DNA of 64,000 bases from an uncultured Gammaproteobacteria bacterium (GTDB lineage Bacteria > Patescibacteriota > Patescibacteriia > UBA9934): positions 643,053 to 707,052 of the forward strand of contig CAYVLY010000001.1 in the NCBI GenBank assembly GCA_964452565.1, in the 5' to 3' direction. A program made the position numbers and the translations under genes. Shown in pieces: positions 11,281 through 64,000 of the stretch. The notes beneath the pieces are model-generated. The model was not told the DNA's origin, did not search any database, and saw nothing but the letters and a program-made list of their open reading frames with translations. Within the stretch, counting starts at the first letter, position 1. Each line of letters starts with the position of its first letter.

Positions 11281-11711
11281 AGAACCGGGTTCGCAAACAA
11301 GACAATGTTCACCGGATCATCATCTCGTGGATGGTGCTCTGTCTCTACCTCGCCTTCTGCTCTGCGCTCAAAATGGCCACAGAACAGGTGGCTGAGCAGC
11401 GAACCAGGGCAAGGATCACGAAGTGCTTCGAGATGGCCTCGTCGTACGAAACATACCAGGCTCAGGAGAAAGCCCCTGGTATCAACTGCGGTTGGGGCAC
11501 CACCCTGCGCAAGAACGAAAGCGGCGCCATTGTGATCACAATGGACCAACGCATCGACTGGTACCGCATCCCGGGAAGCCAGCACATCGAGAAGATCAAA
11601 GACAACCCCTGGCTCCTCCTCTACCCAATTACCCGGGTGCTGGATCAAGCCTTTCCCGTGATGGACGAAGAGGGGTCTGCAGGCCAAGAAAACGGAGGCT
11701 TGCAAAAATAG
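11253..11711 (+). CDS. Hypothetical protein in a GC-rich islet
   Basis: GC-rich ORF that overlaps the previous one. It is followed by the hairpin gcctgaacgccttgccgcacctgcggtcaggc and a T-run. Confidence 0.35.
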   Translation: MHRPQEGPMKNRVRKQDNVHRIIISWMVLCLYLAFCSALKMATEQVAEQRTRARITKCFEMASSYETYQAQEKAPGINCGWGTTLRKNESGAIVITMDQRIDWYRIPGSQHIEKIKDNPWLLLYPITRVLDQAFPVMDEEGSAGQENGGLQK

Positions 11712-11780
11712 CATGGCGCTAAGTTCGACAGCCCATGCCTGAACGCCTTGCCGCACCTGCGGTCAGGCGTCATTCTTTTT

Positions 11781-33980: not shown

Positions 33981-34385
33981 ATGACAAAAACATTGGCCAT
34001 GTTTGCACTTAGTTTCTTGCTTGTCGTCCCAGTTTTGGGAACTATGAGCTTGAGCACTGGTGTTCACGTTGCGCATGCGCAACAACTTGAAACTGAGGAT
34101 TTCTTCGAAGATGAGTTCTCAGAGAGTACTGGCTTAGGTCAAGCCGACCTAAAGTCAACAATTGGAAACCTTATTCGAGTATTCCTAGGGTTCCTTGGAA
34201 TTATCGCTGTTGTGATGGTTCTTCTTGGTGGATTTAAATGGATGACAGCTAGTGGTAATGAAGACAAGGTTGCGGAGGCAAAGCGGCTGCTCATTGCTGG
34301 TGTGGTTGGTCTTGCGATCATCTTGTCAGCGTACGCAATAACAAGCTTTGTTATTGAGTCGGTGATCACGGCATCAGCCGATTAG
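33981..34385 (+). CDS. TrbC/VirB2-like pilin paralog 3
   Basis: Signal peptide, then LLGGFKWMTASGNEDKVAEAKRLLIAGVVGLAIILSAYAIT. Confidence 0.55.
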   Translation: MTKTLAMFALSFLLVVPVLGTMSLSTGVHVAHAQQLETEDFFEDEFSESTGLGQADLKSTIGNLIRVFLGFLGIIAVVMVLLGGFKWMTASGNEDKVAEAKRLLIAGVVGLAIILSAYAITSFVIESVITASAD

Positions 34386-34429
34386 TTTTCACATGACCGT
34401 TTGTCCGCACGCTGTGGGGACATTCGGCT

Positions 34430-34789
34430 ATGCGAAAATATATCGCCCTTGCAGTCATTGGATTGCTTCTTAGCCCAACCCTTACATTTGGACAGTTAGA
34501 TCCAAGCGAGACCGGATTAGAGTCTACTGGGGAGGAGGCATATGGAACACTTGATCAATCAATAGGTCAGTGGGTTGGATCAAAGATCATCACCCCTGCA
34601 CTTGCCCTTGTTGGTGTTATATTCTTGGTACTCATGGTTTATGCTGGGTTCCTATGGATGACAGCTGGAGGAAAGTCAGACCAGGTTCAGAAAGCAAAGG
34701 ACCTGATGATACGCGCTATTATTGGAGTAATCATAATCTCCGCAGCGTATGCAATTACAACCTTTGTGTTCAGAGCTATAGGTAGCTAG
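34430..34789 (+). CDS. TrbC/VirB2-like pilin paralog 4
   Basis: Signal peptide, then MVYAGFLWMTAGGKSDQVQKAKDLMIRAIIGVIIISAAYAIT. Confidence 0.55.
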   Translation: MRKYIALAVIGLLLSPTLTFGQLDPSETGLESTGEEAYGTLDQSIGQWVGSKIITPALALVGVIFLVLMVYAGFLWMTAGGKSDQVQKAKDLMIRAIIGVIIISAAYAITTFVFRAIGS

Positions 34790-34790
34790 T

Positions 34791-35153
34791 ATGAAAAAGA
34801 TAATCACAGCGTTTACCCTGTCTGCGTTCTGCGTTCTGGGTTCTGTATTCTGGGCCAACGCCCAAGACTTCACAGGTCAACTAGATGAGGCTCAAAGTGA
34901 AGTTGGATTTGCACAAACTGATATTGCGACAATGATCGGTACTATTATCGGAGTAGCCCTTTCAGTCCTAGGAATACTACTTTTACTTCTTATAATCTAT
35001 GCTGGATTCCTATGGATGACAGCTGGAGGTGAAACAGATAAGACCAAAAAGGCTAAGGATTATATGATTAATGCAGTCATTGGTTTGATCATAACCCTAG
35101 CGGCCTATGCGATTTCGCAATTTGTTATTAATGCTATTCAGGGTACGACATAG
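34791..35153 (+). CDS. TrbC/VirB2-like pilin paralog 5
   Basis: Signal peptide, then IIYAGFLWMTAGGETDKTKKAKDYMINAVIGLIITLAAYAIS. Confidence 0.55.
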   Translation: MKKIITAFTLSAFCVLGSVFWANAQDFTGQLDEAQSEVGFAQTDIATMIGTIIGVALSVLGILLLLLIIYAGFLWMTAGGETDKTKKAKDYMINAVIGLIITLAAYAISQFVINAIQGTT

Positions 35154-35219
35154 AAAAGTATCGTGAATAATGATAAAATACTATTACTTATTAATTTAAG
35201 AGCTCTTAATTCATATACT

Positions 35220-35603
35220 ATGAGATATCTCGAAAAGCTAGGTGTGCTGCTCGCAATTGGACTTTTGTCTGTCCCAATGCTTGCTGCACCAGTTCATGCG
35301 CAAGATATCGGTACACACCTTGATACTGCTGCAGGTTCTGCAGGGCTATCAGCAAGTACTGACCTTGCAACTATTATTGGTAGCTTGATCAATGTATTCT
35401 TGACCATTCTTGGTATTATCTTGCTCGTCTTAATCCTTTATGCTGGATTCCTATGGATGACAGCTGGAGGTGAGACAGATAAGACAAAGAAGGCTAAGGA
35501 CATCATGATCAATGCGGTTATTGGATTGATCATCCTGCTTGCAGCGTATGCGATTTCAAATTTTGTAATCGAAGCGCTTGGAGAGGCAGGAGTAGCTGAC
35601 TAG
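35220..35603 (+). CDS. TrbC/VirB2-like pilin paralog 6. The C-terminal half is nearly identical to paralog 5.
   Basis: ILYAGFLWMTAGGETDKTKKAKDIMINAVIGLIILLAAYAIS. The likely start is MRYLEK at 35220 rather than the ORF-track start. Confidence 0.55.
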   Translation: MRYLEKLGVLLAIGLLSVPMLAAPVHAQDIGTHLDTAAGSAGLSASTDLATIIGSLINVFLTILGIILLVLILYAGFLWMTAGGETDKTKKAKDIMINAVIGLIILLAAYAISNFVIEALGEAGVAD

Positions 35604-35849: not shown

Positions 35850-37649
35850 CTACGGGCAGAAGCTGGGCTTCTTGTCCTTGCCCTTGAAATGCTCGCACAC
35901 CTTCTGCTTCGTGTCCTGGGGCTCTGAGGAGGACTCGTGATGGGTCGTTGAGCTCGAGGGCACGGTGGCACTTGCGTTCTGTGAGCCGTTGAAGGCGAAC
36001 GAAAGCCCGAGTAGTACGAAGGCCAGAGGCAGGATGACGAAGAAGGCGTGCAGTAGCATGCTCCCGCCCTTTTGTGCGAGGCGTTTCCGTTCGAGTGCGT
36101 TCCAGTGATGCGGGGCAAAGGACATGAACTCCATGATGAAGTAGATGAGCATTGCCGCGACCATGAACGTATGCCAGCCTGTCATGCGTGTGACCGACCT
36201 TGTCCAGACGATCGTATCGAAGACCCAGAACATGGCCCATCCAGCGCCGAATCCCAAGGGGATCAGGGTCCCCATGAGAATTGCCAGGTGACGAGACCAG
36301 GGTTCGCGTCCACGTCCATCGTTGGCCTGCTGGCCATTGTCATCGCGCAGGATCTGGGTACTGAACCTCTGTTCAGCCCAGCGCACCAGGGGTGCGATCA
36401 GGCTTTCCCGGCTGAACGGGTTGAACTTGCTCAGCAGAGATTTGATAGCCGTCGGCAGTTTGTGGTACGGGGCAAAGATCGACCGGAAGACTGTGAAGAG
36501 CAGCACACTGCTAAGTATATGGCTCCCACTCAGGCGTAGTGGCGGGTAGTGCCAGTCGCCTGTGAGCAGGACCAGGCAGTTCAGGAAGCCGGGCTTTTCA
36601 ATGAAGCCCAATCCGTAGGACCAGAGATCCACGCTGCGGAGATAAAGGAGCGCGATAGGGATGAACCCGATCAGCCAGAGGGCGCCGATGAACAGCAGGG
36701 CGCCTCCACCCCACCCCAGCCACTTTGGCAGCCTGTTCTGGGCGAGGTTTTCGCCCCAGGCATACAGCCGGTCCTTGGGTACAAGGGCGTCGAGCTTGTC
36801 GAGTGCGACCATGAGCCAGCCCATCGGGCCAGTGCAGTGACGCTTGGCTGTCATGATGAGCCGTCGTTGGTCTTCCCAGGGGCGCATACGAGCCCACTCG
36901 AAGCCATTGTCGTGATCGTAGGGATTGAGCGTACGTCGAACCTCGTTAGGATTACTCTCAATCGCTCGAGGCAGCCCATAGCTGATCTGCCACGCGTCAC
37001 CTTCGAGTCCGTTGCTATCGTTGTCGCCATTTCGGCGGGCGGGCGTGTCGTCGCTACGCTGCTCATCTTCTGCGGCAGCCAGAATACCCATAAGCACGTC
37101 GATTTCTCGCATGGTCCAGGTAGTCCAGATGCTCAGCGGGGGCTCAGGGATGGCTTGCATGTTCGGGAGTACGCCATGTGCCTCTTCTGCGGCGCTGCCC
37201 AACGCTTCCCGGACTTCTTGTTGGGTAGGGCGGTGGCCCTGTCGAGCACGAACGGCCAAGTTGCGCAGGCCAATGCCGATACGTTCGGACACTTCCTCGA
37301 CCGCCATGCCAGCAATCGGGTTGCCCTGCGCCAGCCTGCGGCCGACAAGTTCTCCGATGAGGTTGAGCGCAACAGCGGTCAGCTGTGGCGGCACAACCAT
37401 GAGCAGAAAGTTCACCAGGCGACCGATATGGCCATCAAGCGCGTTGAGGTTTTGGGGATCTGATCGGCTGATGGCGCGCTCGAGAGCTTCTGCCATGTGT
37501 TCGATCGGAATCTTGATATAGAGGGGGATGTCGTCCATGACGTGTACCTCGTTGTGAAGGTTGATTTGGTATGGGACGGGTCGTTGATCCGTCCCAAAGA
37601 CAGGGAGATCAAGACGGCTAAACTTAGCATTGAAAACAGCTTTTGTCAA
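35850..37649 (-). CDS. Hypothetical polytopic membrane protein (599 aa), GC-rich cassette cargo
   Basis: Multiple hydrophobic helices in the C-terminal half. No recognised catalytic motif. GC-rich codon usage. Confidence 0.4.
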   Translation of the reverse strand: MTKAVFNAKFSRLDLPVFGTDQRPVPYQINLHNEVHVMDDIPLYIKIPIEHMAEALERAISRSDPQNLNALDGHIGRLVNFLLMVVPPQLTAVALNLIGELVGRRLAQGNPIAGMAVEEVSERIGIGLRNLAVRARQGHRPTQQEVREALGSAAEEAHGVLPNMQAIPEPPLSIWTTWTMREIDVLMGILAAAEDEQRSDDTPARRNGDNDSNGLEGDAWQISYGLPRAIESNPNEVRRTLNPYDHDNGFEWARMRPWEDQRRLIMTAKRHCTGPMGWLMVALDKLDALVPKDRLYAWGENLAQNRLPKWLGWGGGALLFIGALWLIGFIPIALLYLRSVDLWSYGLGFIEKPGFLNCLVLLTGDWHYPPLRLSGSHILSSVLLFTVFRSIFAPYHKLPTAIKSLLSKFNPFSRESLIAPLVRWAEQRFSTQILRDDNGQQANDGRGREPWSRHLAILMGTLIPLGFGAGWAMFWVFDTIVWTRSVTRMTGWHTFMVAAMLIYFIMEFMSFAPHHWNALERKRLAQKGGSMLLHAFFVILPLAFVLLGLSFAFNGSQNASATVPSSSTTHHESSSEPQDTKQKVCEHFKGKDKKPSFCP

Positions 37650-37659
37650 CTTAGTGAGG

Positions 37660-37688
37660 TTGACAAAGTAGCTAAAATTGGCTACAGT
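37660..37688 (+). promoter_or_regulatory. Sigma70-like promoter inside the cassette (TTGACA, 17-nt spacer, TACAGT) for the two plus-strand cargo genes
   Basis: TTGACA at 37660-37665 and TACAGT at 37683-37688. The ribosome-binding site GGAGAA lies upstream of the ATG at 37769. Confidence 0.45.
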
Positions 37689-37768
37689 TAGACGTCTGCA
37701 GAGCTCTCGTGAACTCGAGTTTCTGTAAACAAGTTTACCCCCGTCCCCTTTCCAACCCGGAGAACACC

Positions 37769-38380
37769 ATGAACATCTTGTTCGTCCTTCTCGCCCTGCT
37801 CGGGCTCCAGAGCGCCGAGGCCGGTTCTTGCAAGGAGATCTGTCCTGCGAACAAGCCCTGCTTCATCCACTACGTCGACCGCGTGCATACCACGAACGGC
37901 TGGTACCCGTGTGGCCATGGCAATCGCGCCCAGGTCCACGTGCAGTACCAGTCCAGTCGCCGCCGTACGCAGACGCGTGGCCGCGTGCACTTCCAGACCA
38001 GCCCGACCCACTACCCACCCCAGCAGTCCTACGCGGTGCCGGTGGACCCGTACCACCAGCACGGCAACCCAGTCCAGCCGCAGCTGCAGGAGGCGCAGAT
38101 CGTCGAGAGCGAGGCCGAAATCCTGGCACAGGAGCACTGGGATCAGGAACGTCGCGCCGAAGTACAGCAGGCCGAGACTCAGCGGGCTGCTGCCGAGGCT
38201 CAGAGCGATCAGCTCAGGGGTCAGACCCAGCAGCAGCAGGCCAAGATCGACAGCTTGACCAAGCAGCGTGACGCAGCCCGCAAGAAGGCCGATGAGCAGG
38301 AGGCTCGCGCCGACGAGGCCGACGAGCTTCTGCTCGAAGTCGCCGAAGAGCTCGCAGCACCACAGTCGGGGGAGGAGTAG
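37769..38380 (+). CDS. Hypothetical secreted protein with a Q/A/E-rich coiled-coil C-terminal half (cassette cargo)
   Basis: Signal peptide MNILFVLLALLGLQSAEA and coiled-coil-like low-complexity sequence. The start is taken at the internal ATG that has a ribosome-binding site. Confidence 0.4.
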   Translation: MNILFVLLALLGLQSAEAGSCKEICPANKPCFIHYVDRVHTTNGWYPCGHGNRAQVHVQYQSSRRRTQTRGRVHFQTSPTHYPPQQSYAVPVDPYHQHGNPVQPQLQEAQIVESEAEILAQEHWDQERRAEVQQAETQRAAAEAQSDQLRGQTQQQQAKIDSLTKQRDAARKKADEQEARADEADELLLEVAEELAAPQSGEE

Positions 38381-38383
38381 TAC

Positions 38384-39019
38384 ATGTACAACCTCCTCCT
38401 CGTACTGTTGCTGATTGCAGCCAGCTTTGCTCAGTCTCGCCATGCACCCCCTCCGGTGCAGCAGGCACCGGTGACGCAGGCCCATCAGAGTTCGTATTCG
38501 ACCATGATCGATCGGAACCAGATGGTTCCAGGCCGGTGTTATGTTGGCATGCAAGTCACTGGTGCTGGTGCTGGCTGGTTCGAAGCCACCCTCACCAACG
38601 ACACTCCTGCGCCGGTTCGTCTGACCATCGATGGCATCACTGTGCGTGTGTGGAAGCCCATGCAGATGCTTGCTCAGACCGCAGATGGCCAGCAGACTGC
38701 TGTGACGCGGCCTTCGACCGACCGCGTGGTCGTGAACAATGGCGGAGCTGACCAGGAGAGCTATGTGCTCAACCCTGGCGAGCGCTGCCATATGGTGCTG
38801 CCAACCACGCAGCTGGACAAGGCTGGGCGCGCACGCTGGCTCGTGGTCATGGAACAGCTTCGTGCCGTGAATCCCAACGGTCAGTACGCCACACTCGGCG
38901 TACAGGGCAGGCTTCACACCACCGAACACTCGACCATGTTCAGTGTGAACGACTGGTGGGTCATGTTCCAGACCAACAGGAAGACTCTGAACTTCCGGTT
39001 CAGCACCAAGTTCCGCTAG
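38384..39019 (+). CDS. Hypothetical secreted protein (cassette cargo)
   Basis: Signal peptide MYNLLLVLLLIAASFAQS, followed by a terminator hairpin ccgcccctcctcttggagagggcgg. Confidence 0.4.
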   Translation: MYNLLLVLLLIAASFAQSRHAPPPVQQAPVTQAHQSSYSTMIDRNQMVPGRCYVGMQVTGAGAGWFEATLTNDTPAPVRLTIDGITVRVWKPMQMLAQTADGQQTAVTRPSTDRVVVNNGGADQESYVLNPGERCHMVLPTTQLDKAGRARWLVVMEQLRAVNPNGQYATLGVQGRLHTTEHSTMFSVNDWWVMFQTNRKTLNFRFSTKFR

Positions 39020-39105
39020 CACTTCTCCGCATTCGTCCGTCCGCCGCCCCTCCTCTTGGAGAGGGCGGTTTTGCTTATGTAAAAAATCCCCGGCAGAGCC
39101 GGAGA

Positions 39106-41569: not shown

Positions 41570-42385
41570 GTGATAGCTTATTTACTCACCTTAAGCTGGG
41601 AAACGGAGGTAAAAATGACCCAGTCACGAGATGAGAGAAAGGAGTTTCTCCGACAGGAGATGCTGCGCGATATGGAAGTCGGCATGGAGGCCGCGCGTCG
41701 GCAGGTTGGTGGGGCTGCCAAAAGTGGCGCCCACCCACTCAGGGTCTTCGAGATTGCTGGTCGTATGATGCACCAGTCCCTTGCAGAGAGGTTGGAGCTC
41801 CAGGAGGGTGACGAGGAGCTCATGCAAGAGATAGCTCGTGAGGAGCATGCTCACAGGCTGAGGTCTTCTATTGCCGGCTTGACCGAGGCCGCCAACGAGA
41901 TCAGCGCCCATTGGGGTCCGATGACCCAGCAACTTGAGCGTGATCGACAGGGTCCGGTGAACATCCAACCTGGTGATATCTGCGCTTTGCCAGGTGTGAT
42001 AGACAAGGAGAGGGACGCGCTGAAATCCACCGCACTGTATGTGGTTGATCGAGACGGGGATACGCTCGTTGTCTGTCCGCTGCATGTTGACATAACCGTG
42101 CATGGCATCAAGACCAAGCGCGACTACGATGTTGTCCTTGTTGGTAAGGATAGCCCCCTTTCTGCGTTTCCGACGAGCAAGACGGCCGTCCGGCCCTGGT
42201 TGACACGCAGGATTCCAGCGAGCGCAATCACAAATCACCCAGCCGCGCGGCTCTACGAAGAGCAGCATCAACGAGTCGTCGAGGCCTATGAGTTCAAGTC
42301 CAGTCGCCGCAAGCGGCCGTGGGCCAAGCCTGCCTGGGATGCCGCGTGGAGGTCTGTAATCCAGCGACTCGTGAGCAACAACTAG
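41570..42385 (+). CDS. Hypothetical protein in a GC-rich islet
   Basis: Clean ORF with elevated GC. No recognised motif. Confidence 0.35.
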   Translation: MIAYLLTLSWETEVKMTQSRDERKEFLRQEMLRDMEVGMEAARRQVGGAAKSGAHPLRVFEIAGRMMHQSLAERLELQEGDEELMQEIAREEHAHRLRSSIAGLTEAANEISAHWGPMTQQLERDRQGPVNIQPGDICALPGVIDKERDALKSTALYVVDRDGDTLVVCPLHVDITVHGIKTKRDYDVVLVGKDSPLSAFPTSKTAVRPWLTRRIPASAITNHPAARLYEEQHQRVVEAYEFKSSRRKRPWAKPAWDAAWRSVIQRLVSNN

Positions 42386-53599: not shown

Positions 53600-54217
53600 T
53601 TAAAGCATCTCATGGAGAATGTCGATCACCGGATGGGCGGCGGTTCGGGAGATGGCGACCCATGCTTGCTCGATCATCTGCATGGGTGTGAAGTCGCCAT
53701 GTAGCCGGACCAGGCTGATCTGCTCGTGACTGAAGGCTTTGGTCAGGGGCACGCCAGGACCCCCGTAGTAGGGCCCGTCCGGTCCGTTGGAGCAGGGGAC
53801 GTAGAACTTCGCATACGCAAACGTGATGCTATTGGCGATGAACCAATCCTTCAGGGCGCGCAGTTCAGTTGCGCCGCCATGCAGGACGCGGTAGGCCTCG
53901 TTCGGAACAGGGCCGTCGGGGGTCTTCATCAGCGGCATGGGTCCGAAGATCCAGCAGAGCTCTCTGTTTTCATCGTCGAGCTGCACCAGCTCCAGGAACC
54001 TGCCAGCAAGGTTGGGTCGAACTGCGACGATGCCGCAGTTGTGGCAGATCTCGAAGTCTGCGGTCAGGGGGTCGATTTCTGGTGCCATTTTTCCTCCAAA
54101 TGCTTCCCAAGCAGCTGCCAGGGTCAGCTTTGGTGTTAAGTCCAGACTGCTTCCGAAATGGTCAGCGCCTAGACAGGACTCTGGGATGGCGATCCCAAAG
54201 ACGAAATGATAGCTCAA
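53600..54217 (-). CDS. Hypothetical protein in a GC-rich islet on the 5' side of tRNA-Leu(TAA)
   Basis: ORF with GC-rich codon usage. No recognised motif. Confidence 0.35.
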   Translation of the reverse strand: MSYHFVFGIAIPESCLGADHFGSSLDLTPKLTLAAAWEAFGGKMAPEIDPLTADFEICHNCGIVAVRPNLAGRFLELVQLDDENRELCWIFGPMPLMKTPDGPVPNEAYRVLHGGATELRALKDWFIANSITFAYAKFYVPCSNGPDGPYYGGPGVPLTKAFSHEQISLVRLHGDFTPMQMIEQAWVAISRTAAHPVIDILHEML

Positions 54218-55541: not shown

Positions 55542-55895
55542 TCAGGAGAACTCTGAAGGTAGTAGAAGGGGCGGTTGGGTAGGCTTCTCTCCCGGAGGGG
55601 GGATTCCCGATGGGAACCAGTTCTTGAGCACCATGCAGCGCGGGCTGTGCATCACGTTCGTCGGGCAGGCGGCCTTCTTGAGGTCCAGGCCTCGCGGCGT
55701 CACCCACCAGGGGGTCGCCAGAAGGATCGCATGCTGCTCGGGCCATGGCTGATCTACGAGTGCCAGGCCTTGGGGACGAAGTGCGGCCGGTGGCTCTGCC
55801 GGTGCTACGTACAGCCCAACACTACGGTCAGACTGCGTTGTCGCCAGGGTGATCCCGACGACGAGTGCGAGTGCGAGGCACCAATGTATCGTCAT
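55542..55895 (-). CDS. Hypothetical small secreted protein in a GC-rich islet
   Basis: Signal peptide MTIHWCLALALVVGITLA. GC-rich, Pro/Ala-rich sequence. The start is taken at the internal Met. Confidence 0.3.
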   Translation of the reverse strand: MTIHWCLALALVVGITLATTQSDRSVGLYVAPAEPPAALRPQGLALVDQPWPEQHAILLATPWWVTPRGLDLKKAACPTNVMHSPRCMVLKNWFPSGIPPPGEKPTQPPLLLPSEFS

Positions 55896-55962
55896 GGGGA
55901 TCTCCTTGAGGTTCAAAAAAAATACTACTGTGAGGTAGTATTTTTGTCAAGAATCGATCACT

Positions 55963-56517
55963 TTATAGCTTTTCGATAACTTCTTCATGCCGCTCAAACG
56001 CATATTGAAGCGCTGCGATTTCGCATTCATGACCCTTGTGCATTTCAACCAGGCCGTCGACATGGCCAAAGAGGCTGTCGATTTTCCTGTTTGTTTCTTT
56101 GAAGCGAGTATTCATATTAATTCGCTGCTCCTGCTGATCAAATTCAAGCCTATCAAATCGAGCATTCATCTGATCTTTTGTGTCTCGCGTTTCTGCTTTT
56201 ATGCGCCCAAGTTCTTCACCATTAATACTTACCCTTTCATTTGTGACTCGAAGTTCGGATTTTATTTGAGCCAGCTGATTGTTTGTTTCTTTTTGTTGCT
56301 TTTCAGCCTTATCGAAACGTTCGTCAATAGCATTGAGCTGTTCATCCATGCGCCGGTCATTTAGATCAAATCTCTGATCCATGGCATCAAATCGTTGATT
56401 TATACCATCGAACCGTTTGTCCATGCCGTCAAATCGCTTGTCTATTTTGTTAAGGCGATTTGTTATTTGTCCAAGAATTCCTTGGATATTGTCAAGAGTT
56501 GTTTGCATACGTTTTCT
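55963..56517 (-). CDS. Hypothetical coiled-coil protein with tandem heptad-like RFD repeats
   Basis: Repeating units DKRFDGM / DKRFDGI / NQRFDAM / DQRFDLN, reflected in a DNA periodicity of about 21 bp. The start is taken at MRKRMQ. Confidence 0.4.
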   Translation of the reverse strand, partial: RKRMQTTLDNIQGILGQITNRLNKIDKRFDGMDKRFDGINQRFDAMDQRFDLNDRRMDEQLNAIDERFDKAEKQQKETNNQLAQIKSELRVTNERVSINGEELGRIKAETRDTKDQMNARFDRLEFDQQEQRINMNTRFKETNRKIDSLFGHVDGLVEMHKGHECEIAALQYAFERHEEVIEKL

Positions 56518-56607
56518 CATACAAGATTTATTATACACGGTGCGTTTGGGGTGGTTTTCACCCCAAACGCACTTGCACACACTGTGTGCACAGCGGATAT
56601 CAACAGT

Positions 56608-56813: not shown

Positions 56814-59558
56814 TTAAGCTCCAGCAGGAGCAGTTTGTAAGTTTGTGCGTCGCACAAAGAAGTAAGCTAGTCCGATCAAAGCTGCTAGAAGTAACCCACC
56901 ACCAATCCATGGCGTGATGTTATTACTCTGTGCTGCCGCAACAGGTACTTCATCACTAACCTCCTTATTGACCTCTTCCTGAATTTGCACAACGTCTTGC
57001 GAAGTTCTTGGGTACACACGCTGTTCACCACTAACGGTTCGGAGAACTCCTGTGATCTCAAGCTCTGAACTCATTGAGCTCCACTGCATACCTTCATGTG
57101 TGTTTGCGACAATGGTGACACTGCCCGTTGAGTCACGAAGGACAATCTTTGTGTCGTTCATATCAATCACCTCGCCACGAACAGTAACTAATGATCCATC
57201 TAGCATTGAATCCAATCCATTGATCGATGTACTTGTTGCATTCAAGTCAACATGGCCGGTGATCTGGACATCTCCCATTTCAGAAAGCTTAACCCTTTGC
57301 TCCCCACGACTTTCAGAAAGCTCACCACTAGCAGTTACAACATCTCCAAGCTTCAACATTGGCCAGTCTGCGTAGTAGAAGTAGAGTTGCGCACCTTCGA
57401 TGAATGCAATCTGCGACCCAAACGTTCCAGGAAGCGCCGTTACAATCCCGCTGACAACTACCTCATCTGCTGAAGCAGATGAATAGCTTGAGTTTGATTT
57501 GCTGCTAGAACTTGATGAGCTCGAAGTGGTTTTTGGCGTCTCTGCTATGGCAACAACGCGATGGGTTTCTGGTTCAGTGGAAACGTCATTATCATTTCCC
57601 GTGCTTGCCTGCTGATCATGTTGAACATCTTTGTGTTCATCTTGTTGATCAGTGCTGGACTCGGATGTTTCTGTGGTTGATGACTCTGACTGTGCTTCAT
57701 CTTCTGTGTTTTGGGTTCCGTTTTCTGTATCCTGTTGATTTTGCTCCTCCTCATAGTTTATTTCGTTAGCTGCAGATTTTGTTATGTCCGACGTAACAGC
57801 CCAGTCAGATCCACTCAGTGCCAGACTCTCGCCCTTGTTGGGCTTATCAACCTCCTCAGTTCCATAGCTTATGGAATCTATCAGATCACCAGCAGGGTCA
57901 TATAGGTACACTGTGTCGCCACCATTATTAAGTTTGCCCTTGGGCTCCTCGACCACCGCGTATTCATTAGGCCCGATCGTTCCTTTGAGCTCTGTTTTTC
58001 GATCAGTAGCATCAGCTACAGACCATCCAGTGAGGTCGATCGAATTATCGGTCGTATTGTATAGCTCGACCCATTCGACCTCACCCTCAACAGGGTCACT
58101 CACAAGTTCGTTAATGATCAACACACCCGATTCATACGAGAGAGATTCACTGGTCTCAGATTCATCTGAGTCGTCAGTTTGATTAACGACCTCGTCATCC
58201 ACGGCCTCTTCTTCCGCCTCTTCTTCGTCAGCTTCAAGAGATCCCTCGGCTTCGCTCGGGATGGAGGGGGTATCGACTTCTTCAACCTCCTCGATTGCAT
58301 CAGATTCCTGAACCTCATCAGAGAAGATGTTAAGTGACCCCGGAGTCGGCTCTGTAGTTACGGTCCAGACGTTTTCGATTAGTGCTAAAGAGTAGCTTTT
58401 TTCTGGCGCTTCGATTTCATCGGTTCCGTAGGTAATCGAATCAACAACACTTCCATCAGGATCTACAAGCTCGATTGTGTCGCCACCATTGTTAAGTTGC
58501 CCTGAGGGGCTGTAAATGACCGCATAGCTTCCTGATTCGATTGAAGTTTTATCAAATACGGATGACCGTTCAATTGCATCATGCACTGTCCAACCTTCAA
58601 GTTCGACTGAATCACCTGTCGGGTTGTAGATCTCAACCCACTCTTCTTGGTCCTCAGCGGGATCGCTTACAAATTCATTAATAACCAGTGAGCTTTGATC
58701 CGCCTCTTTGACCCCCTCAGTCTCCTCAGTAGTATCGGACGTTACGTAGAGTGTTCCTGGTGTTCCAAGTTGATTAGAGTCACTTAAGTTCGTATTTGAT
58801 CCTGAGCTGTACCATCCAAGCGTTGCAAGGTCGCGCTGCATCGATGCCTTAGGGTCTGTGGATCCAGATGGAGGAGATCCCCCGTCTCCGGCAACATCAA
58901 CAACAGTTCCGTCTGGCATAGCAAGCATGATCTCAAGTGATGAGTTGCTTAAAGATACCGAGGCGGTCACAAGATCAGGCCGCACCGTTAAAGTTGTCTT
59001 GTCTGAGCCAAGATCGTAATTAGATACAAGCAATACATTGCCGGCAGCAAGCATGGTGCCGTCCGCAAGTGCTATCGCATTTCCAGAGGTGGCACATCCG
59101 GTGAGAATCCACCCGCTAAGATCCACATCCGCACCATGTGCGTTATAGAGTTCAATCCACTCATCGGCCTGTGAGAGTTCGCTTCCGGCCCAGTTAACCT
59201 CACCGATGAGGATATTTGGGACTTCTGTGGCGATTTCAGTACTGGCTGTTTCGACTCCAGATCCATCGGCCGCTGATCCTTTTGAGGATTCTTCCGCGGC
59301 TTCTTCAACAGTGGGTTCGTCAGTTTCTGATTCATCTCCTGTCGATCCTTCGGATTCTTGAGAATCTGGTTCTTCGACGACTTCTGGTCCATCTGCCTGT
59401 TCGGTCGTTGCGTCAGACTCAACTGTTTCTGTTTCTTCGAGCACGACTTGTTGCTCATCTGTACTCTCTGTTGTAGTTTGTGGTGCTTCCTGTGCACTGG
59501 CGGGTATTGCCAGCACAAAAAACACGAAGCAGAAGAGTCCATATAATAGTTTTTTCAT
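56814..59558 (-). CDS. Large secreted surface protein with three lamin-tail-domain (LTD) repeats, acidic or Ser-rich linkers and a C-terminal TM anchor
   Basis: Signal peptide MKKLLYGLFCFVFFVLAIPASA. LTD cores repeat three times: ILIGEVNWAGSE..WIELYN, LVINEFVSDPAED..WVEIYN and LIINELVSDPVEG..WVELYN. C-terminal anchor LLLAALIGLAYFFVRRT. Confidence 0.65.
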   Translation of the reverse strand: MKKLLYGLFCFVFFVLAIPASAQEAPQTTTESTDEQQVVLEETETVESDATTEQADGPEVVEEPDSQESEGSTGDESETDEPTVEEAAEESSKGSAADGSGVETASTEIATEVPNILIGEVNWAGSELSQADEWIELYNAHGADVDLSGWILTGCATSGNAIALADGTMLAAGNVLLVSNYDLGSDKTTLTVRPDLVTASVSLSNSSLEIMLAMPDGTVVDVAGDGGSPPSGSTDPKASMQRDLATLGWYSSGSNTNLSDSNQLGTPGTLYVTSDTTEETEGVKEADQSSLVINEFVSDPAEDQEEWVEIYNPTGDSVELEGWTVHDAIERSSVFDKTSIESGSYAVIYSPSGQLNNGGDTIELVDPDGSVVDSITYGTDEIEAPEKSYSLALIENVWTVTTEPTPGSLNIFSDEVQESDAIEEVEEVDTPSIPSEAEGSLEADEEEAEEEAVDDEVVNQTDDSDESETSESLSYESGVLIINELVSDPVEGEVEWVELYNTTDNSIDLTGWSVADATDRKTELKGTIGPNEYAVVEEPKGKLNNGGDTVYLYDPAGDLIDSISYGTEEVDKPNKGESLALSGSDWAVTSDITKSAANEINYEEEQNQQDTENGTQNTEDEAQSESSTTETSESSTDQQDEHKDVQHDQQASTGNDNDVSTEPETHRVVAIAETPKTTSSSSSSSSKSNSSYSSASADEVVVSGIVTALPGTFGSQIAFIEGAQLYFYYADWPMLKLGDVVTASGELSESRGEQRVKLSEMGDVQITGHVDLNATSTSINGLDSMLDGSLVTVRGEVIDMNDTKIVLRDSTGSVTIVANTHEGMQWSSMSSELEITGVLRTVSGEQRVYPRTSQDVVQIQEEVNKEVSDEVPVAAAQSNNITPWIGGGLLLAALIGLAYFFVRRTNLQTAPAGA

Positions 59559-59719: not shown

Positions 59720-59742
59720 TTTTGTGGTGGGCGAGAAGGGAC
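59720..59742 (-). repeat. Direct duplicate, 23 nt long, of the tRNA-Leu(TAG) 3' end. It lies 190 bp downstream of the tRNA (minus-strand sense).
   Basis: ttttgtggtgggcgagaagggac at 59720-59742 is identical to 59912-59934. A further inverted, degenerate tRNA fragment (aaggcgtaagggctctcgtccc) sits between the two copies at about 59857-59879. Confidence 0.7.
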
Positions 59743-59916
59743 GTCGGCCCTCGTCGAGCTGAGCTCGACTTCAGCCTCCCAGCCTGCGTCGCTCAAAAAT
59801 GTATAAACGATGTTTAGCCACTTCTCTCGCTATCCTCGGCTGAACGAACCCTGTACATGAAGGCGTAAGGGCTCTCGTCCCTAAAATACAAAATCCAGTC
59901 TTGCGACTGAATTTTG

Positions 59917-60001
59917 TGGTGGGCGAGAAGGGACTCGAACCCTTACGCCTTGCGGCACTAGTTCCTAAGACTAGCGTGTCTACCAATTCCACCACCCGCC
60001 C
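59917..60001 (-). tRNA. tRNA-Leu (anticodon TAG)
   Basis: Hand-folded: acceptor GGGCGGG, anticodon stem CTAGT/ACTAG with loop CTTAGGA, long variable arm GTGCCGCAAGGCGTAAG, T-arm AAGGGTTCGAGTCCCTT, CCA encoded. Confidence 0.8.
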
Positions 60002-60067
60002 ATGGGTGCGAATTGCGACAGTATTATTACACAAATATACAAATTAATCAAGGCCTGGGGGTTATTG

Positions 60068-60101
60068 AAAAGCAAAAACGGACCCGTGTGAGGGGTCCGT
60101 T
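60068..60101 (-). terminator. Minus-strand intrinsic terminator after the MotB-like gene
   Basis: Minus-strand reading: acggacccctcacacgggtccgt followed by ttttgctttt. Confidence 0.6.
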
Positions 60102-60126
60102 GTGAACGGGAGTGCGCTTGAGCGAC

Positions 60127-60780
60127 CTAGTCGTCGCCGATGCGCAGGAGGTAGACGGCGATCCGTCGCCTTCCAGAGGCAGGGCTGGTTCCGGGGTTGT
60201 CGCCCAGGAACTGGTCAGGCCCGCTGCCAGAGGTCATGATCGTGATGTCCGTGATGTCTGCCGGTAGGTTCTGGTAGATCGTGTTGCCCACGAATGTGGC
60301 ACGGAGCTTTGCCAGATCTATGTTGTTGCACGGAGCTGGCAGTTTGGATCCGGCTTCGACAGCCTCGGCATAGGCATGGTCCCATCCGGCGCACGAGCCG
60401 CCGTTCATGGCGGTGCCGTCGGTGAAGCCCACGACCTGAACCAGGTTGAACCCTTCGTCGCGCATGCGCTGGGCGATCTGCGGGACGATATCGGTGCGGA
60501 TGCGATCCGCGACCTCGTCATCTTCCGATCGACCACTCTTGAAGACGTAGCCTGCGGCCTCGCTGAGCACGAACACCTGGTCGGTGATTGGCGTGAGGGG
60601 CTCGGGTTCGGGTTCCTCGATCTCTTGCTGCGCACGGATCAGTGGCAACAGCACGAACGCTGCGAGCATGAACATGATCACCAGGAACGAACAGTCGATG
60701 AGTGGAACGAAGAGCATGTGCGCTTCGTCGTCATCGCCTCCTTGCCCTGAGAGTCTGTAGAGGTTGATGTGTCGGAACAT
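60127..60780 (-). CDS. MotB/ExbD/TolR-family stator subunit with a C-terminal OmpA-like peptidoglycan-binding domain (ZorB-like)
   Basis: TM helix with conserved Asp, MLFVPLIDCSFLVIMFML, as in ExbD/TolR PFIDVMLVLL. C-terminal VQVVGFTDGTAMNGGS...NIDLAKLRATFV resembles OmpA/MotB V.GHTD..GS...N..LS..RA..V. GC-rich. Confidence 0.55.
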   Translation of the reverse strand: MFRHINLYRLSGQGGDDDEAHMLFVPLIDCSFLVIMFMLAAFVLLPLIRAQQEIEEPEPEPLTPITDQVFVLSEAAGYVFKSGRSEDDEVADRIRTDIVPQIAQRMRDEGFNLVQVVGFTDGTAMNGGSCAGWDHAYAEAVEAGSKLPAPCNNIDLAKLRATFVGNTIYQNLPADITDITIMTSGSGPDQFLGDNPGTSPASGRRRIAVYLLRIGDD

Positions 60781-60783
60781 GGA

Positions 60784-62097
60784 TCACTCCCCGTCCAGCT
60801 CGACGGACACCTGCTTGACCAGCCCGAGAGCCTCCATGAGCTTGGGATTTGAGCGGATCTTGGCAGCCAGGGTGGAGAGTCGAGCGGGCAGGAACCGCAG
60901 GCTATCGGACACGGCTGCAACACCAGGCCCATGGGAGGCTAGACCACCGACTGCCATATCGAGCTCACCGAGGCTTGCTATCGTGCCTTCTGGGATATCC
61001 AAGCTACCGACTGCCGTCGCGATGCCTTCGAGGGCCTTCAGGCCTCGCTCCATCTTTGCGGCATCCAGGGACTCGAACTGCGCGGCGCTGTCCTTGATGG
61101 TACCGAGCGCGCTGACGCCCTTGCTGACGTCGGCTCCTATGAGTGCAGCCAGGACATCCACGGCGAGCTGCAGTTGGGTGTTGACGTCGGTCAGGCCGGC
61201 TGCATCCACGTTACCGAGACGATCGAGCTGGGTGAAGACGGCATCGATGCTCTCGGCGTCGAGGCCCGCGAAGGCCGCGATGTATCTGTAGTATGCGTCG
61301 AGGACCTTCATGCCATTGCTGGCGTCTTCTCCTGTGAGTGCAGCCAGGACATCCACGGCGAGCTGCAGTTGGGTGTTGACGTCGGTCAGGCCGGTTGAAT
61401 CTATGCCATCCAGGCGCTCGAGCTCGCTGAACACCAGGGCTAGCTGTTCGGAGTCGACCTGGGCCAGGGCAGCTGTGCCTTGACCGGCCAGTTCCAGGGT
61501 CTCGGCCGCTGCTCGCTTCTCGCCGATGCCGGTCAGGTGTTCGTTGATCTTGCTCAACACACCCACCCTCTGACCTACTAGCTTGAGGCCTTCGTTCAGG
61601 TCGCCCAGGAGGGTGCGAACGCTGTTGAGTCGGCCCATGCGGTCGCCTGAGCTCTCGGCGCGCTCCATGTTGTGCGCGACTAGACCGGTGACCTTTTCGA
61701 GATCTTCCATCAGGTCGATGGAGGCCCGGATGTGTTCGTCCTGGCTCTTGGAGCGCATGACGAACAGGGCGCTCATGACGAGCGTACCGATCCAGCCCTC
61801 CAGGGAGGTGACAACGCAGATGCCGATGTCGTGCATAAGCTGTTGGTTGCTGGGGATCGCGCTGGCGCTATAGTCCATCAGGAAGAAGGTGGCGCCAATA
61901 ATGGTCCCCAGTACACCGAGCATCATGCTCGACGTCTTGAACCACACTGCGAGCTTGGCTCGGTCAGGCGGTCGTGTGAGGACCTGGCGGATGCTGAGGA
62001 TGAGCAAGATCGCCCACAACAGCGACCAGAAGATTGTGAATGCCATAATGATGTCTCCTTTCGGTAGACAGTGGAGGTTTTTGTGATACACTGGCAA
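60784..62097 (-). CDS. MotA/ExbB/TolQ-family ion-channel subunit with a coiled-coil C-terminal tail of about 300 aa that contains internal repeats (ZorA-like architecture)
   Basis: N-terminal TM core with MMLGVLGTIIGATFF (compare LGLLGTVIGL of MotA/TolQ/ExbB) and a following helix. It is then a long tail with duplicated blocks, GLTDVNTQLQLAVDVLAAL appearing twice (DNA repeats at about 61140-61210 and 61330-61400). It overlaps the downstream MotB-like gene by 4 bp. The probable start is the internal Met near 62046. Confidence 0.55.
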   Translation of the reverse strand: MPVYHKNLHCLPKGDIIMAFTIFWSLLWAILLILSIRQVLTRPPDRAKLAVWFKTSSMMLGVLGTIIGATFFLMDYSASAIPSNQQLMHDIGICVVTSLEGWIGTLVMSALFVMRSKSQDEHIRASIDLMEDLEKVTGLVAHNMERAESSGDRMGRLNSVRTLLGDLNEGLKLVGQRVGVLSKINEHLTGIGEKRAAAETLELAGQGTAALAQVDSEQLALVFSELERLDGIDSTGLTDVNTQLQLAVDVLAALTGEDASNGMKVLDAYYRYIAAFAGLDAESIDAVFTQLDRLGNVDAAGLTDVNTQLQLAVDVLAALIGADVSKGVSALGTIKDSAAQFESLDAAKMERGLKALEGIATAVGSLDIPEGTIASLGELDMAVGGLASHGPGVAAVSDSLRFLPARLSTLAAKIRSNPKLMEALGLVKQVSVELDGE

Positions 62098-62282
62098 CTT
62101 TGGTAAGGGGCCGGTGTTGCCAGGAGGCGGACTGATTTTTAGTAAAAACTACAAAGCATTCCGCCGCCTGATAACCTCGAAAATTAGCAGGAAATAAGGA
62201 TTTTGTCAATGATTGGCCGAATTTTCTTGAATTATTAGCCTATAATGCTATGCTGCAACTCCCGTGATATACTCATAGGGTT

Positions 62283-63849: not shown

Positions 63850-64000
<151 letters not shown>

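What the first reader, a model, noticed from the sequence alone, without database searches (positions are those of the whole stretch)
60040..62180. GC-rich two-gene MotA/ExbB-like plus MotB/ExbD-OmpA-like stator module with a long coiled-coil tail (ZorA/ZorB-like) and no motility, TonB or Tol partners
Seen in sequence: two translationally coupled minus-strand genes. They are a 437-aa protein (60784..62097) and a 217-aa protein (60127..60780). The larger protein's first ~120 aa carry the hallmark last two TM helices of the MotA/TolQ/ExbB channel family (LGVLGTIIGATFF). The rest is a repetitive helical tail of about 300 aa with duplicated LTDVNTQLQLAVDVLAAL blocks. The smaller protein has an ExbD/TolR/MotB-type TM helix with the conserved Asp (PLIDCSFLVIMF) plus an OmpA-like C-terminal domain. 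Established knowledge: stator pairs normally work with a flagellar rotor, TonB, TolA or gliding machinery. A MotA-like protein with a long C-terminal coiled-coil tail paired with a MotB-like peptidoglycan binder is the defining architecture of the ZorA/ZorB core of Zorya anti-phage systems. Inference: nothing resembling TonB, TolA, a flagellar gene or ZorC/D/E is nearby. The flanking genes are a tRNA and an unrelated hydrolase. The block is GC-rich in an AT-rich genome and abuts tRNA-Leu(TAG), which itself carries att-like debris. This looks like a horizontally acquired, minimal ion-driven module. It could be a truncated or novel Zorya-like defence system or a new energiser.
Basis: partly seen in the sequence, partly recalled or inferred. 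Interest (0 to 1): 0.85.

Follow-up and report, generated by a model that had tools for sequence, protein, structure and literature searches.

The report
Stand-alone ZorAB-like membrane motor pair
Two adjacent genes in a very small bacterial genome encode what looks like a stripped-down relative of the ion-driven ZorA/ZorB motor of the Zorya anti-phage system, but they have no nuclease partner, so what the motor drives is unknown.

Summary
The two minus-strand genes exist as described. A is more likely 420 aa, starting at ATG 62046 behind an AGGAG. B is 217 aa and starts 3 nt after A's stop.

A has three closely spaced TM helices and a roughly 320-aa amphipathic helical tail. In an exhaustive search of 1.84 billion proteins, its only match outside its own tiny family was a bona fide ZorA2. 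Profile comparison gave 90.6% and 78% against two ZorA2 proteins, versus 0.3–3.6% for TolQ, ExbB and MotA.

B has a single TM helix with an Asp that is invariant in six aligned homologues. It carries OmpA-type motifs, but no HMM match and only weak fold support.

The A+B pair recurs in four lineages of relatives and two genomic contexts. No third gene is conserved, and no ZorC–G gene was found in the window.

The GC3 excess (0.77 versus about 0.39) is real. However, orthologues share it at the same locus, and so do about ten other ORFan genes in the window. The att-like repeat lies on the far side of the tRNA. Recent tRNA-targeted acquisition is therefore not supported.

Verdict: a new, effector-less variant of the ZorAB-type motor. 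A defence role is unproven.

The parts
60784..62046 (-). Gene A: 420-aa ZorA2-like MotA/ExbB-superfamily subunit. The mechanical ORF extends to TTG 62097, giving 437 aa.
   Evidence: ORF. AGGAG at 62059-62055 and ATG at 62046. Homologues start at the same Met. PADLOC ZorA2 models E = 4.6e-6, 6.9e-5 and 1.2e-3. Exhaustive phmmer search. hhalign against ZorA2 proteins.
61759..62046 (-). Compact three-TM core of A: TM1 aa 1-23, TM2 aa 39-57 with LGVLGT, TM3 aa 76-96 with TSLEG. The TM1-TM2 loop is basic and about 15 aa long. The TM2-TM3 loop is about 18 aa long.
   Evidence: Hydropathy. Invariant columns G44 L46 G47 G51 T80 E83 G84. Colinear alignment to ZorA2 residues 22-132.
60787..61749 (-). 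Cytoplasmic (inferred) helical tail of A, aa ~100-420. It is Leu/Ala/Gly-rich with net charge -18. The tip, LRFLPARLSTLAAKIRSNP, is partly conserved.
   Evidence: All-helical in the low-confidence AF2 model. Hydrophobic period 3.42, reached by 0 of 300 shuffles. Composition. Tail length varies from about 170 to 320 aa among homologues. dN/dS about 0.69.
61104..61434 (-). Internal duplication in the tail: two 136-nt copies 195 nt (65 codons) apart.
   Evidence: Family D1, 82% identity. It corresponds to a 63-residue gap in the alignment with the L001 orthologue. Tandem Repeats Finder did not report it.
60127..60780 (-). Gene B: 217-aa MotB-like subunit. It has an N-terminal cytoplasmic stretch, one TM helix with Asp29 (codon 60694-60696), a short Glu/Pro linker, and an OmpA-like domain at aa ~66-214.
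60077..60101 (-). Intrinsic-terminator-like hairpin plus T-run just after B. It closes the two-gene unit before tRNA-Leu.
   Evidence: 9-bp stem with 6 GC pairs. The sequence is visible.
62098..62282 (.). Low-GC divergent intergenic region between A and the Ser-hydrolase gene. It is the presumed promoter region of the pair.
   Evidence: No sigma-70-like site was found on the minus strand here, so the promoter is inferred, not shown.

Best explanation
The two genes encode a self-contained, lineage-restricted relative of the ZorA/ZorB core of type II Zorya.

Inferred by analogy with solved ZorAB structures:
- Five A subunits surround two B subunits in the membrane.
- B is fixed to peptidoglycan through its OmpA-like domain.
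- Ions pass via B-Asp29 and the polar residues of A's TM2 and TM3 (Thr48, Thr80/Ser81, Glu83). This flow turns the A ring and its bundled cytoplasmic tail.
- The tail, through its partly conserved tip, passes the signal to a cytoplasmic partner that is not encoded next to the pair.

The most likely role is sensing or responding to disturbance of the cell envelope, for example during phage attack. The output is either an unlinked effector or the ion leak itself.

Shown here: superfamily membership, nearest relationship to ZorA2, architecture, conservation of the key residues, constraint on the pair that is weaker than on the flanking genes, and inheritance as a two-gene unit.

Inferred: 5:2 stoichiometry, rotation, peptidoglycan binding, and any defence role.
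For: Nearest relatives:
- An exhaustive phmmer search of 1.84 billion representatives returned only the protein itself, two family members and P0006.
- P0006 is a ZorA2, with PADLOC E = 3e-139.
- The only defence-library models matching window A were ZorA2 models. They also match the L001 A protein and P0004, but not P0005.
- ZorA2 is the only NCBIfam hit for A. No TolQ, ExbB or MotA model appears at E <= 1.
- hhalign of the A family gave 90.6% / E = 1.3e-6 against P0006 and 78% / 1.8e-5 against an annotated E. coli ZorA2. The same test gave 3.6% for TolQ, 1.3% for ExbB and 0.3% for MotA.

Architecture:
- A has the same compact three-TM layout as the ZorA2 P0006, followed by a long amphipathic helical tail.

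B subunit:
- The TM Asp is invariant in six homologues.
- The motifs GFTD, N..L...RA..V, GPDQ and RRxI appear in the OmpA order, with D121 and R160 invariant.
- The predicted topology matches the OmpA-like fold.

Conservation:
- A and B are always adjacent (0-14 nt apart) in four lineages and two different genomic contexts.
- dN/dS is 0.26 for B and 0.38 for the A core, against 0.69 for the tail.

Host capacity:
- The window encodes an ion-translocating pyrophosphatase and PBP1A, so an ion gradient and peptidoglycan are plausible.
Against: - All similarity to ZorA2 lies far below curated thresholds: NF041792 scores 11.9 bits against a cut-off of 700, and Pfam PF01618 scores 15.7 against 22.9 for the window protein.
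- B matches no ZorB, MotB or OmpA model. hhalign against ZorB2 gives only E = 0.04.
- The A model is unusable, with pLDDT 41.6.
- The tail shows no homology to ZorA tails. Its hydrophobic period (about 3.4) differs from that of the ZorA2 tail tested (3.75).
- No ZorE or any other Zorya effector is in the window or in related loci. In characterised systems ZorAB needs an effector (PMC11890865, PMC11946911).
- One lineage (L002) lacks the Asp, and one population (L004) has a split B. The function is therefore dispensable.
- Zorya is reported to be under-represented in single-membrane bacteria (PMC11946911).
Confidence: 0.55

Rival explanations
1. This is a lineage-specific envelope energiser unrelated to defence. 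The pair uses ion flow to power a surface or cell-wall process particular to these very small bacteria. Candidates are DNA uptake involving the neighbouring surface LTD-domain protein, pilus function, or host attachment.
For: - The pair sits at a conserved chromosomal locus between housekeeping genes in three lineages.
- It has no linked nuclease.
- No relatives were found on viral contigs or plasmids.
- The LTD-domain surface protein lies just beyond the tRNA in the window, L001 and L002.
- Non-flagellar MotA/ExbB relatives are known to be functionally very diverse (PMC12505986).
Against: - The nearest relatives are defence proteins.
- The tail evolves almost neutrally and changes length by indels and duplication. 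That is unusual for a housekeeping coupling device.
- The Asp is lost in one lineage and B is split in one population.
- Synteny with the LTD gene among close relatives is uninformative, and L006 shows a different context.
Confidence: 0.25
2. This is a decaying remnant of a type II Zorya system that lost ZorE. It is no longer functional, or is on its way out.
For: - There is no effector.
- Selection is relaxed relative to the flanking genes.
- The L002 lineage has a short 267-aa A and a B without the Asp. L004 has a split B.
Against: - Both reading frames are intact in the window, L001, L002 and L006 despite dS > 1 where it was measured (window versus L001) and A identity as low as 26-37%.
- The key residues are invariant in six B homologues.
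- dN/dS is well below 1 for B and for the A core.
Confidence: 0.1
3. This is the first reader's version: a recently acquired foreign island that integrated at tRNA-Leu.
For: - The compositional deviation is strong.
- A tRNA is adjacent, with a 23-nt repeat of its 3' end.
- Gene content around this tRNA varies between relatives.
Against: - The same pair, at the same locus and with the same GC3 excess, occurs in relatives separated by dS > 1.
- Nucleotide similarity runs without a break from the hydrolase gene into the 5' part of A.
- The repeat brackets 192 nt on the other side of the tRNA and is conserved in L001.
- No donor-like homologue exists in 1.84 billion protein representatives, in plasmids or in viral contigs.
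Confidence: 0.05
4. This is not a motor at all. A is a coiled-coil membrane protein, B is an unrelated wall-associated protein, and the resemblance to stator proteins is chance.
For: - All individual matches for the window proteins fall below curated thresholds.
- Foldseek gave no match for B.
Against: - Independent lines agree. The L001 orthologue passes Pfam PF01618.
- hhalign gives E = 1e-6 and 2e-5 against two different ZorA2 proteins, while the controls fail.
- tblastn with an E. coli ZorA2 picks the A gene as the top hit in all four loci.
- The Asp-TM plus OmpA-motif partner is always adjacent.
Confidence: 0.05

Closest known systems
ZorA2/ZorB2 core of type II Zorya (for example the E. 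coli plasmid NZ_CP127005.1 zorA2-zorB2-zorE locus, and the Sulfuricurvum kujiense ZorAB structure in PMC11890865)
   Same: - The A subunit has three closely spaced TM helices, an [GV]-[IV]-LGT motif in TM2, a T-S-[LI] motif in TM3, and a long C-terminal alpha-helical tail.
- The B subunit has one TM helix with an Asp, followed by a wall-binding domain with OmpA-type motifs.
- The genes are adjacent in the order A then B.
- This is the nearest family by exhaustive search and by profile comparison.
   Different: - There is no ZorE, and no conserved third gene of any kind.
- Scores lie far below the family cut-offs (11.9 bits against 700).
- B does not match ZorB models.
- The tail is unrelated in sequence, variable in length (about 170-320 aa), richer in Gly than the ZorA2 tail tested, and has a different hydrophobic period.
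- TM3 carries an invariant Glu where ZorA2 has Ala or Val.
- The host is a bacterium with a very small genome, probably with a single membrane.
Type I Zorya ZorAB (E. coli NCTC 9026 in PMC11946911; Shewanella ANA-3, PDB 8vvn)
   Same: - An ion-driven 5:2 motor with a peptidoglycan-binding ZorB dimer and a cytoplasmic ZorA tail.
   Different: - According to PMC11946911, type I ZorA has a membrane-proximal cytoplasmic domain with a beta-hairpin and a Ca2+ site, and a tail of about 500 residues (about 70 nm). It also needs ZorC and ZorD.
- None of these was seen here. No PADLOC ZorA1 model matched A.
Flagellar stator MotAB/PomAB
   Same: - B resembles MotB: an Asp at the cytoplasmic end of the TM helix and an OmpA-like C-terminal domain (hhalign E = 1.3e-3).
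   Different: - By established knowledge, MotA has four TM helices and a large cytoplasmic torque-generating domain.
- A has three TM helices and short loops, and shows no detectable similarity to MotA (0.3%).
- B has no plug or long linker.
ExbBD / TolQR
   Same: - The A subunit has three TM helices with the LGxxGT-type motif in TM2 and an acidic residue in TM3.
- The B subunit has an Asp in its TM helix.
   Different: - By established knowledge, ExbB and TolQ have a large cytoplasmic domain between TM1 and TM2 and no long tail.
- ExbD and TolR periplasmic domains are not OmpA-like.
- These systems need TonB or TolA and an outer membrane.
- hhalign gives only 1.3-3.6% over 22-33 columns.

Membership tests
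MotA/TolQ/ExbB channel superfamily (Pfam PF01618) | Match to the family model at the gathering score | tested here: inconclusive
   Window A scores 15.7 bits against a cut-off of 22.9. Its orthologue in L001 scores 35.8 bits, E = 7.8e-9, and passes.
MotA/TolQ/ExbB channel superfamily (Pfam PF01618) | Paired B subunit with a single TM helix carrying the essential Asp, encoded next to A | tested here: met
   D29 is invariant in six homologues and absent only in the L002 lineage. A and B are 0-14 nt apart in all loci.
MotA/TolQ/ExbB channel superfamily (Pfam PF01618) | A5B2 assembly and ion-driven rotation | not testable with these tools
   Only monomer prediction was available, and the A model has pLDDT 41.6.
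Type II Zorya (ZorA2-ZorB2-ZorE) | ZorA2 equivalog model at its curated cut-off | tested here: not met
   NF041792 scores 11.9 bits against a cut-off of 700. PADLOC ZorA2 models give only E = 4.6e-6 to 1.2e-3 over the TM core.
Type II Zorya (ZorA2-ZorB2-ZorE) | Compact three-TM core followed by a long helical C-terminal tail | tested here: met
   TM segments at aa 1-23, 39-57 and 76-96, the same spacing as ZorA2 P0006. Colinear hhalign alignments. Helical, amphipathic tail.
Type II Zorya (ZorA2-ZorB2-ZorE) | ZorB2 partner recognised by ZorB models | tested here: not met
   No PADLOC hit for any of four B homologues at E <= 10. hhalign against E. coli ZorB2 gives E = 0.04.
Type II Zorya (ZorA2-ZorB2-ZorE) | ZorE HNH nickase encoded with ZorAB | tested here: not met
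   No Zor effector family matched among 57 window proteins. tblastn with ZorE found nothing below E = 1 in the window, L001, L002 or L006. No conserved third gene. The rest of the roughly 0.71-Mb genome could not be read.
Type II Zorya (ZorA2-ZorB2-ZorE) | Protection against phage | not testable with these tools
   This needs an experiment.
Type I / III Zorya | ZorC+ZorD or ZorF+ZorG encoded with ZorAB, and a ZorA1/ZorA3-type A subunit | tested here: not met
   No ZorA1 or ZorA3 model hit for A. No ZorC/D/F/G hit in the window.
Flagellar stator MotAB | Four-TM MotA with a cytoplasmic torque-generating domain | tested here: not met
   A has three TM helices and loops of 15-18 aa. hhalign against E. 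coli MotA gives 0.3%.
ExbBD / TolQR | ExbB/TolQ-type A subunit, ExbD/TolR-type periplasmic domain, and a TonB or TolA partner | tested here: not met
   hhalign gives 1.3-3.6% over the TM2 motif only. Pfam ExbD gives E = 3, over the TM only. No TonB or TolA family is on record for the called genes next to the pair in any of four contexts.
OmpA-like peptidoglycan-binding domain (PF00691) | Match to the family model | tested here: not met
   No Pfam hit for B or its homologues. Only TIGR03350, the TssL OmpA domain, at E = 3e-4 and 20.8 bits against a cut-off of 139.8.
OmpA-like peptidoglycan-binding domain (PF00691) | Canonical motif blocks (G-x-T-D, N-x-x-L-x-x-x-R-A-x-x-V, G-x-G-P, R-R-x-x-[IV]) with the ligand-contacting Asp and Arg, and a beta-alpha-beta-alpha-beta-beta fold | tested here: inconclusive

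The most novel reading that the evidence does not exclude
A tail-bearing 5:2 ion motor works on its own, with no dedicated nuclease, in a very small and probably single-membrane bacterium. It could be a self-sufficient sensor of envelope breach whose output is the ion leak itself. Alternatively, it could energise a process peculiar to these bacteria.

It would belong to a flexible compartment of ORFan genes held at GC3 of about 0.75 in a genome with GC3 of about 0.39. Orthologues separated by dS > 1 keep that excess, which points to a force other than recent transfer: recurrent exchange with a GC-rich gene pool, biased gene conversion, or selection.
Probability: 0.25. Interest if true: 0.75.

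Novelty: new variant of a known kind. Interest (0 to 1): 0.5.

Why it matters
In every characterised Zorya system, ZorAB depends on soluble nuclease effectors, and Zorya is reported to be rare in single-membrane bacteria (PMC11946911, PMC11890865). A conserved ZorAB-like pair with no effector, in a bacterium whose longest contig is 0.71 Mb, would therefore be informative in one of three ways:
- It could show the minimal form of the sensor and what such a motor can do alone.
- It could point to effectors encoded elsewhere in the genome.
- It could reveal a non-defence use of a tail-bearing 5:2 motor.

The family is also nearly invisible in public data. The NCBI gene call for A omits the whole membrane domain, and in the related genome the gene was called on the wrong strand. 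The persistent two-class codon usage is a separate evolutionary puzzle.

Tried and rejected
- **Structure of A.** The AlphaFold2 model built from four sequences had pLDDT 41.6 and was not used for fold search.
- **Foldseek on the B model against the PDB.** No match at E <= 0.001.
- **afdb50 fold library.** It was not available.
- **Profile searches of the PDB.** The A profile returned only coiled-coil noise. The B profile gave E = 0.12 at best.
- **Genome-contig scan.** It returned one false positive, a diguanylate-cyclase sensor in a Clostridia bacterium.
- **Metagenome-contig scan.** It returned only the locus already held.
- **Viral-contig scans with both families, and a plasmid tblastn with A.** Nothing found.
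- **Organism name.** Cluster look-up and a literature search for FLOH01 gave nothing. The assignment to the candidate phyla radiation is my inference from the contig size and gene content.
- **Tandem Repeats Finder.** It missed the tail duplication. The seed-based repeat finder found it.
- **EEP-family gene downstream of B in L001 as a possible effector.** Rejected because it is absent from the window, from L002 and from L006.
- **Assembly chimera.** Rejected because the hydrolase-A junction recurs in independent NCBI, JGI and Logan assemblies.
Full report
**1. The observation**

Both minus-strand ORFs exist at the stated coordinates: 60784..62097 (437 aa from a TTG) and 60127..60780 (217 aa).

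The real start of the larger gene, A, is very probably the ATG at 62046. An AGGAG lies 8 nt upstream, and all homologues begin at the equivalent Met. That gives 420 aa.

A's TGA and B's ATG are separated by 3 nt, and a GGGGAG lies inside the end of A. Coupled translation is therefore plausible.

A terminator-like hairpin follows B at 60101-60077.

The repeated LTDVNTQLQLAVDVLAAL block is a 136-nt direct duplication, 82% identical and 195 nt apart. The orthologue in L001 lacks it.

The composition is strongly deviant:
- GC is 0.59-0.65 against 0.40-0.49 in the flanks.
- GC3 is 0.77 against 0.33-0.43 in housekeeping genes.
- The tetranucleotide distance to the background is 0.62, against 0.23 +/- 0.02 for 2-kb background chunks.

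**2. What the proteins are**

*Gene A.* A has three hydrophobic segments (aa 1-23, 39-57, 76-96). A basic loop of about 15 residues separates TM1 from TM2, and a loop of about 18 residues separates TM2 from TM3. About 320 residues follow. They are predicted to be helical (low-confidence model) and show a significant hydrophobic period of 3.42 (0 of 300 shuffles).

Family models give only weak hits for the window protein:
- Pfam MotA_ExbB: 15.7 bits, below the 22.9 cut-off.
- Three PADLOC ZorA2 models: E = 4.6e-6 to 1.2e-3.
- NCBIfam ZorA2: E = 0.06, with no TolQ, ExbB or MotA model listed.

The orthologue in L001 passes Pfam MotA_ExbB with 35.8 bits.

An exhaustive HMMER search of 1.84 billion cluster representatives found only four proteins: the NCBI call of A itself, two family members (P0004, P0005), and P0006 at E = 3.9e-4. 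P0006 is a genuine ZorA2 (PADLOC E = 3e-139). It is followed on its contig by a gene whose product has the DLMAGLMMVF-type TM helix seen in annotated ZorB2.

Like-for-like profile comparisons of the A family gave:

| Target | Probability | E-value | Aligned columns |
|---|---|---|---|
| ZorA2 P0006 | 90.6% | 1.3e-6 | 108 |
| Annotated E. coli plasmid ZorA2 | 78% | 1.8e-5 | 91 |
| E. coli TolQ | 3.6% | 0.012 | 33 |
| E. coli ExbB | 1.3% | 0.039 | 22 |
| E. coli MotA | 0.3% | 0.22 | 30 (tail region only) |

The A core is therefore a distant relative of the type II ZorA motor domain. It shares the compact three-TM layout.

*Gene B.* B has one TM helix with Asp29 at its cytoplasmic end. It is invariant in six aligned homologues and absent only in the L002 lineage.

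The external part matches no Pfam or PADLOC model. It does carry the OmpA-family motif blocks in the canonical order: VVGFTDGT, NIDLAKLRATFV, GSGPDQ and RRRIAVYLL. They align to the OmpA-like PA0833-PD, and D121 and R160 are invariant.

The AlphaFold2 model (pLDDT 71.8) has the matching beta-alpha-beta-alpha-alpha-beta-beta order.

Fold searches gave only weak support:
- Foldseek found nothing.
- hhalign gave E = 1.3e-3 against E. coli MotB, 4e-3 against TolR (TM only) and 0.04 against ZorB2.

I take B to be a MotB-style wall anchor. That rests on motifs and topology, not on a significant model match.

**3. Relatives and context**

The family is tiny. A has three homologues (one of them found only at the DNA level). 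The B search returned seven proteins, counting the window's own.

In every locus A and B are adjacent. In L001 and L002-L005 they sit beside the same Ser-hydrolase and RlmH genes as in the window. In L006 they lie between a glycyl-tRNA-synthetase-like gene (judged from its translation) and a Cys-rich lipoprotein gene. The unit that is conserved is therefore just A+B.

No ZorC/D/E/F/G model matches any of 57 window proteins. ZorE finds nothing by tblastn in the window or in the related loci.

L001 alone has an EEP-family gene and a UbiA-family gene between B and tRNA-Leu. Neither is in the window.

Between the window and L001, dN/dS was as follows (NG86; dS is 1.1-2.9, so the values are rough):

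| Gene or region | dN/dS |
|---|---|
| RlmH | 0.03 |
| Ser-hydrolase | 0.09 |
| B | 0.26 |
| A core | 0.38 |
| A tail | 0.69 |

The core and B are thus under constraint, while the tail is close to free. Total A length ranges from 267 to 420 aa. One lineage (L002) has lost the Asp, and one population (L004) has a split B, so the function is dispensable.

No relatives were found on viral contigs or plasmids.

**4. The horizontal-transfer inference**

The deviation is real, but it is neither recent nor unique:
- Orthologues keep it: GC3 is 0.77/0.72 in L001, 0.73/0.73 in L006 and 0.57/0.52 in L002, against 0.35-0.41 for their neighbours.
- Nucleotide similarity to L001 runs unbroken from the hydrolase gene into the 5' part of A.
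- About ten other genes in the window have GC3 of 0.58-0.80. Eight of the nine scanned have no Pfam match.
- Their codon usage correlates with that of A and B at r = 0.91, against -0.19 for housekeeping genes.

The 23-nt repeat of the tRNA-Leu 3' end brackets 192 nt on the far side of the tRNA. It is also present, with a partial tRNA-like copy, in L001. In L002-L004 the tRNA is next to B but inverted.

The tRNA neighbourhood is thus rearrangement-prone. The pair, however, is not an element integrated there.

Independent assemblies share the hydrolase-A junction, which excludes a chimera.

**5. Mechanism**

By analogy with solved ZorAB complexes (PMC11946911, PMC11890865), I propose the following, all of it inferred:
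- An A5B2 complex forms in the membrane.
- B is anchored to peptidoglycan.
- Ions pass B-Asp29 and the polar residues of A's TM2 and TM3.
- The A ring and its cytoplasmic tail turn.
- The tail tip contacts a partner that is not encoded nearby.

The window encodes an ion-translocating pyrophosphatase and PBP1A. An ion gradient and a cell wall are therefore available.

Whether the output is defence, or something else, cannot be decided. My estimates are:

| Reading | Probability |
|---|---|
| Pair is a MotA/ExbB-type motor | about 0.85 |
| ZorA2 is its closest known relative | about 0.7 |
| It acts in defence | about 0.35 |

**6. Comparison and verdict**

It works like a ZorAB core, but it is not a member of any defined Zorya type. 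The curated ZorA2 threshold, the ZorB models and the requirement for an effector were all tested and not met.

It is not a flagellar stator, and it is not ExbBD or TolQR.

I file it as a new, effector-less variant of the tail-bearing 5:2 motor kind, in an unusual host. Interest is moderate. The strongest open points are what the tail talks to, and why a class of ORFan genes keeps a GC3 of about 0.75 in this genome.

Noticed in passing
window 5243-5698, 11145-11756, 27610-28440, 35850-39020, 41570-42385, 53600-54217, 55542-55916 (plus 60127-62046): A second compositional class of genes has GC3 of 0.58-0.80, against about 0.39 for housekeeping genes. Eight of the nine scanned have no Pfam match, and several start with a signal-peptide-like or TM-like hydrophobic stretch. 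Their codon usage matches that of the A/B pair (RSCU r = 0.91) and is unrelated to that of housekeeping genes. Next to tRNA-Gly, the window and L001 both carry a GC-rich gene, but the L001 protein finds no match anywhere in the window. This suggests cargo turnover at that site.
   Followed up: partly
window 59720-59934; L001 13603-13899: Downstream of tRNA-Leu(tag) lies a second copy of its last 23 nt. It is preceded by a stretch that reads like a partial, degenerate tRNA copy and is followed by its own terminator-like hairpin. The arrangement is conserved in the related genome. It therefore looks like an old tRNA-derived element rather than fresh att debris.
   Followed up: partly
window 60784-62046; L001 8871-9959: Public gene calls hide this family. 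The NCBI product for A (P0001, 308 aa) starts at residue 113 and omits the whole membrane domain. In the related genome a 203-aa ORF on the opposite strand was called instead of A. Antisense ORFs are abundant in the GC-rich islands.
   Followed up: yes
L002 4741-5358; L004 1093-1711: In one lineage the B protein has no acidic residue in its TM helix, and the A protein is only 267 aa long. In one sample of that lineage B is split into 133-aa and 90-aa calls. These are possible signs of decay.
   Followed up: partly
window 56814-59558: A 914-aa surface protein carries repeated lamin-tail (LTD) domains, acidic low-complexity spacers and a C-terminal TM anchor. The orthologue in L001 is 1171 aa, so the repeat number varies. 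One protein in the window scan hits the PADLOC candidate family 'SNc+LTD' (E = 2.5e-5), presumably this one. The gene lies just beyond tRNA-Leu from the pair in the window, L001 and L002.
   Followed up: no
window 7325-9316, 16343-17779, 19227-22187: These genes encode a membrane ion-translocating pyrophosphatase (best NCBIfam model is the sodium-translocating type, 1040.9 bits), DnaA, and a class A penicillin-binding protein. The window is therefore near the likely replication origin, in an organism with peptidoglycan and a pyrophosphate-driven ion pump.
   Followed up: no
window 33981-35603: Four tandem paralogous genes of 119-146 aa each have an N-terminal signal-like segment and a shared C-terminal motif, L-x-x-G-F-x-W-M-T-A-(S/G)-G. 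They look like a small family of pilin-like or secreted membrane proteins (translations).
   Followed up: no
window 63851-64000: The 5' end of a 23S rRNA gene starts here. RlmH and protein-coding genes lie upstream rather than a 16S gene, so the rRNA genes may be unlinked.
   Followed up: no
window 55963-56580: A 205-aa protein consists of repeated (D/N)xRFDxM-type units and is predicted to be coiled-coil. It has normal low GC3 (0.39) and sits between two GC-rich islands. Pfam gives only coiled-coil noise.
   Followed up: no
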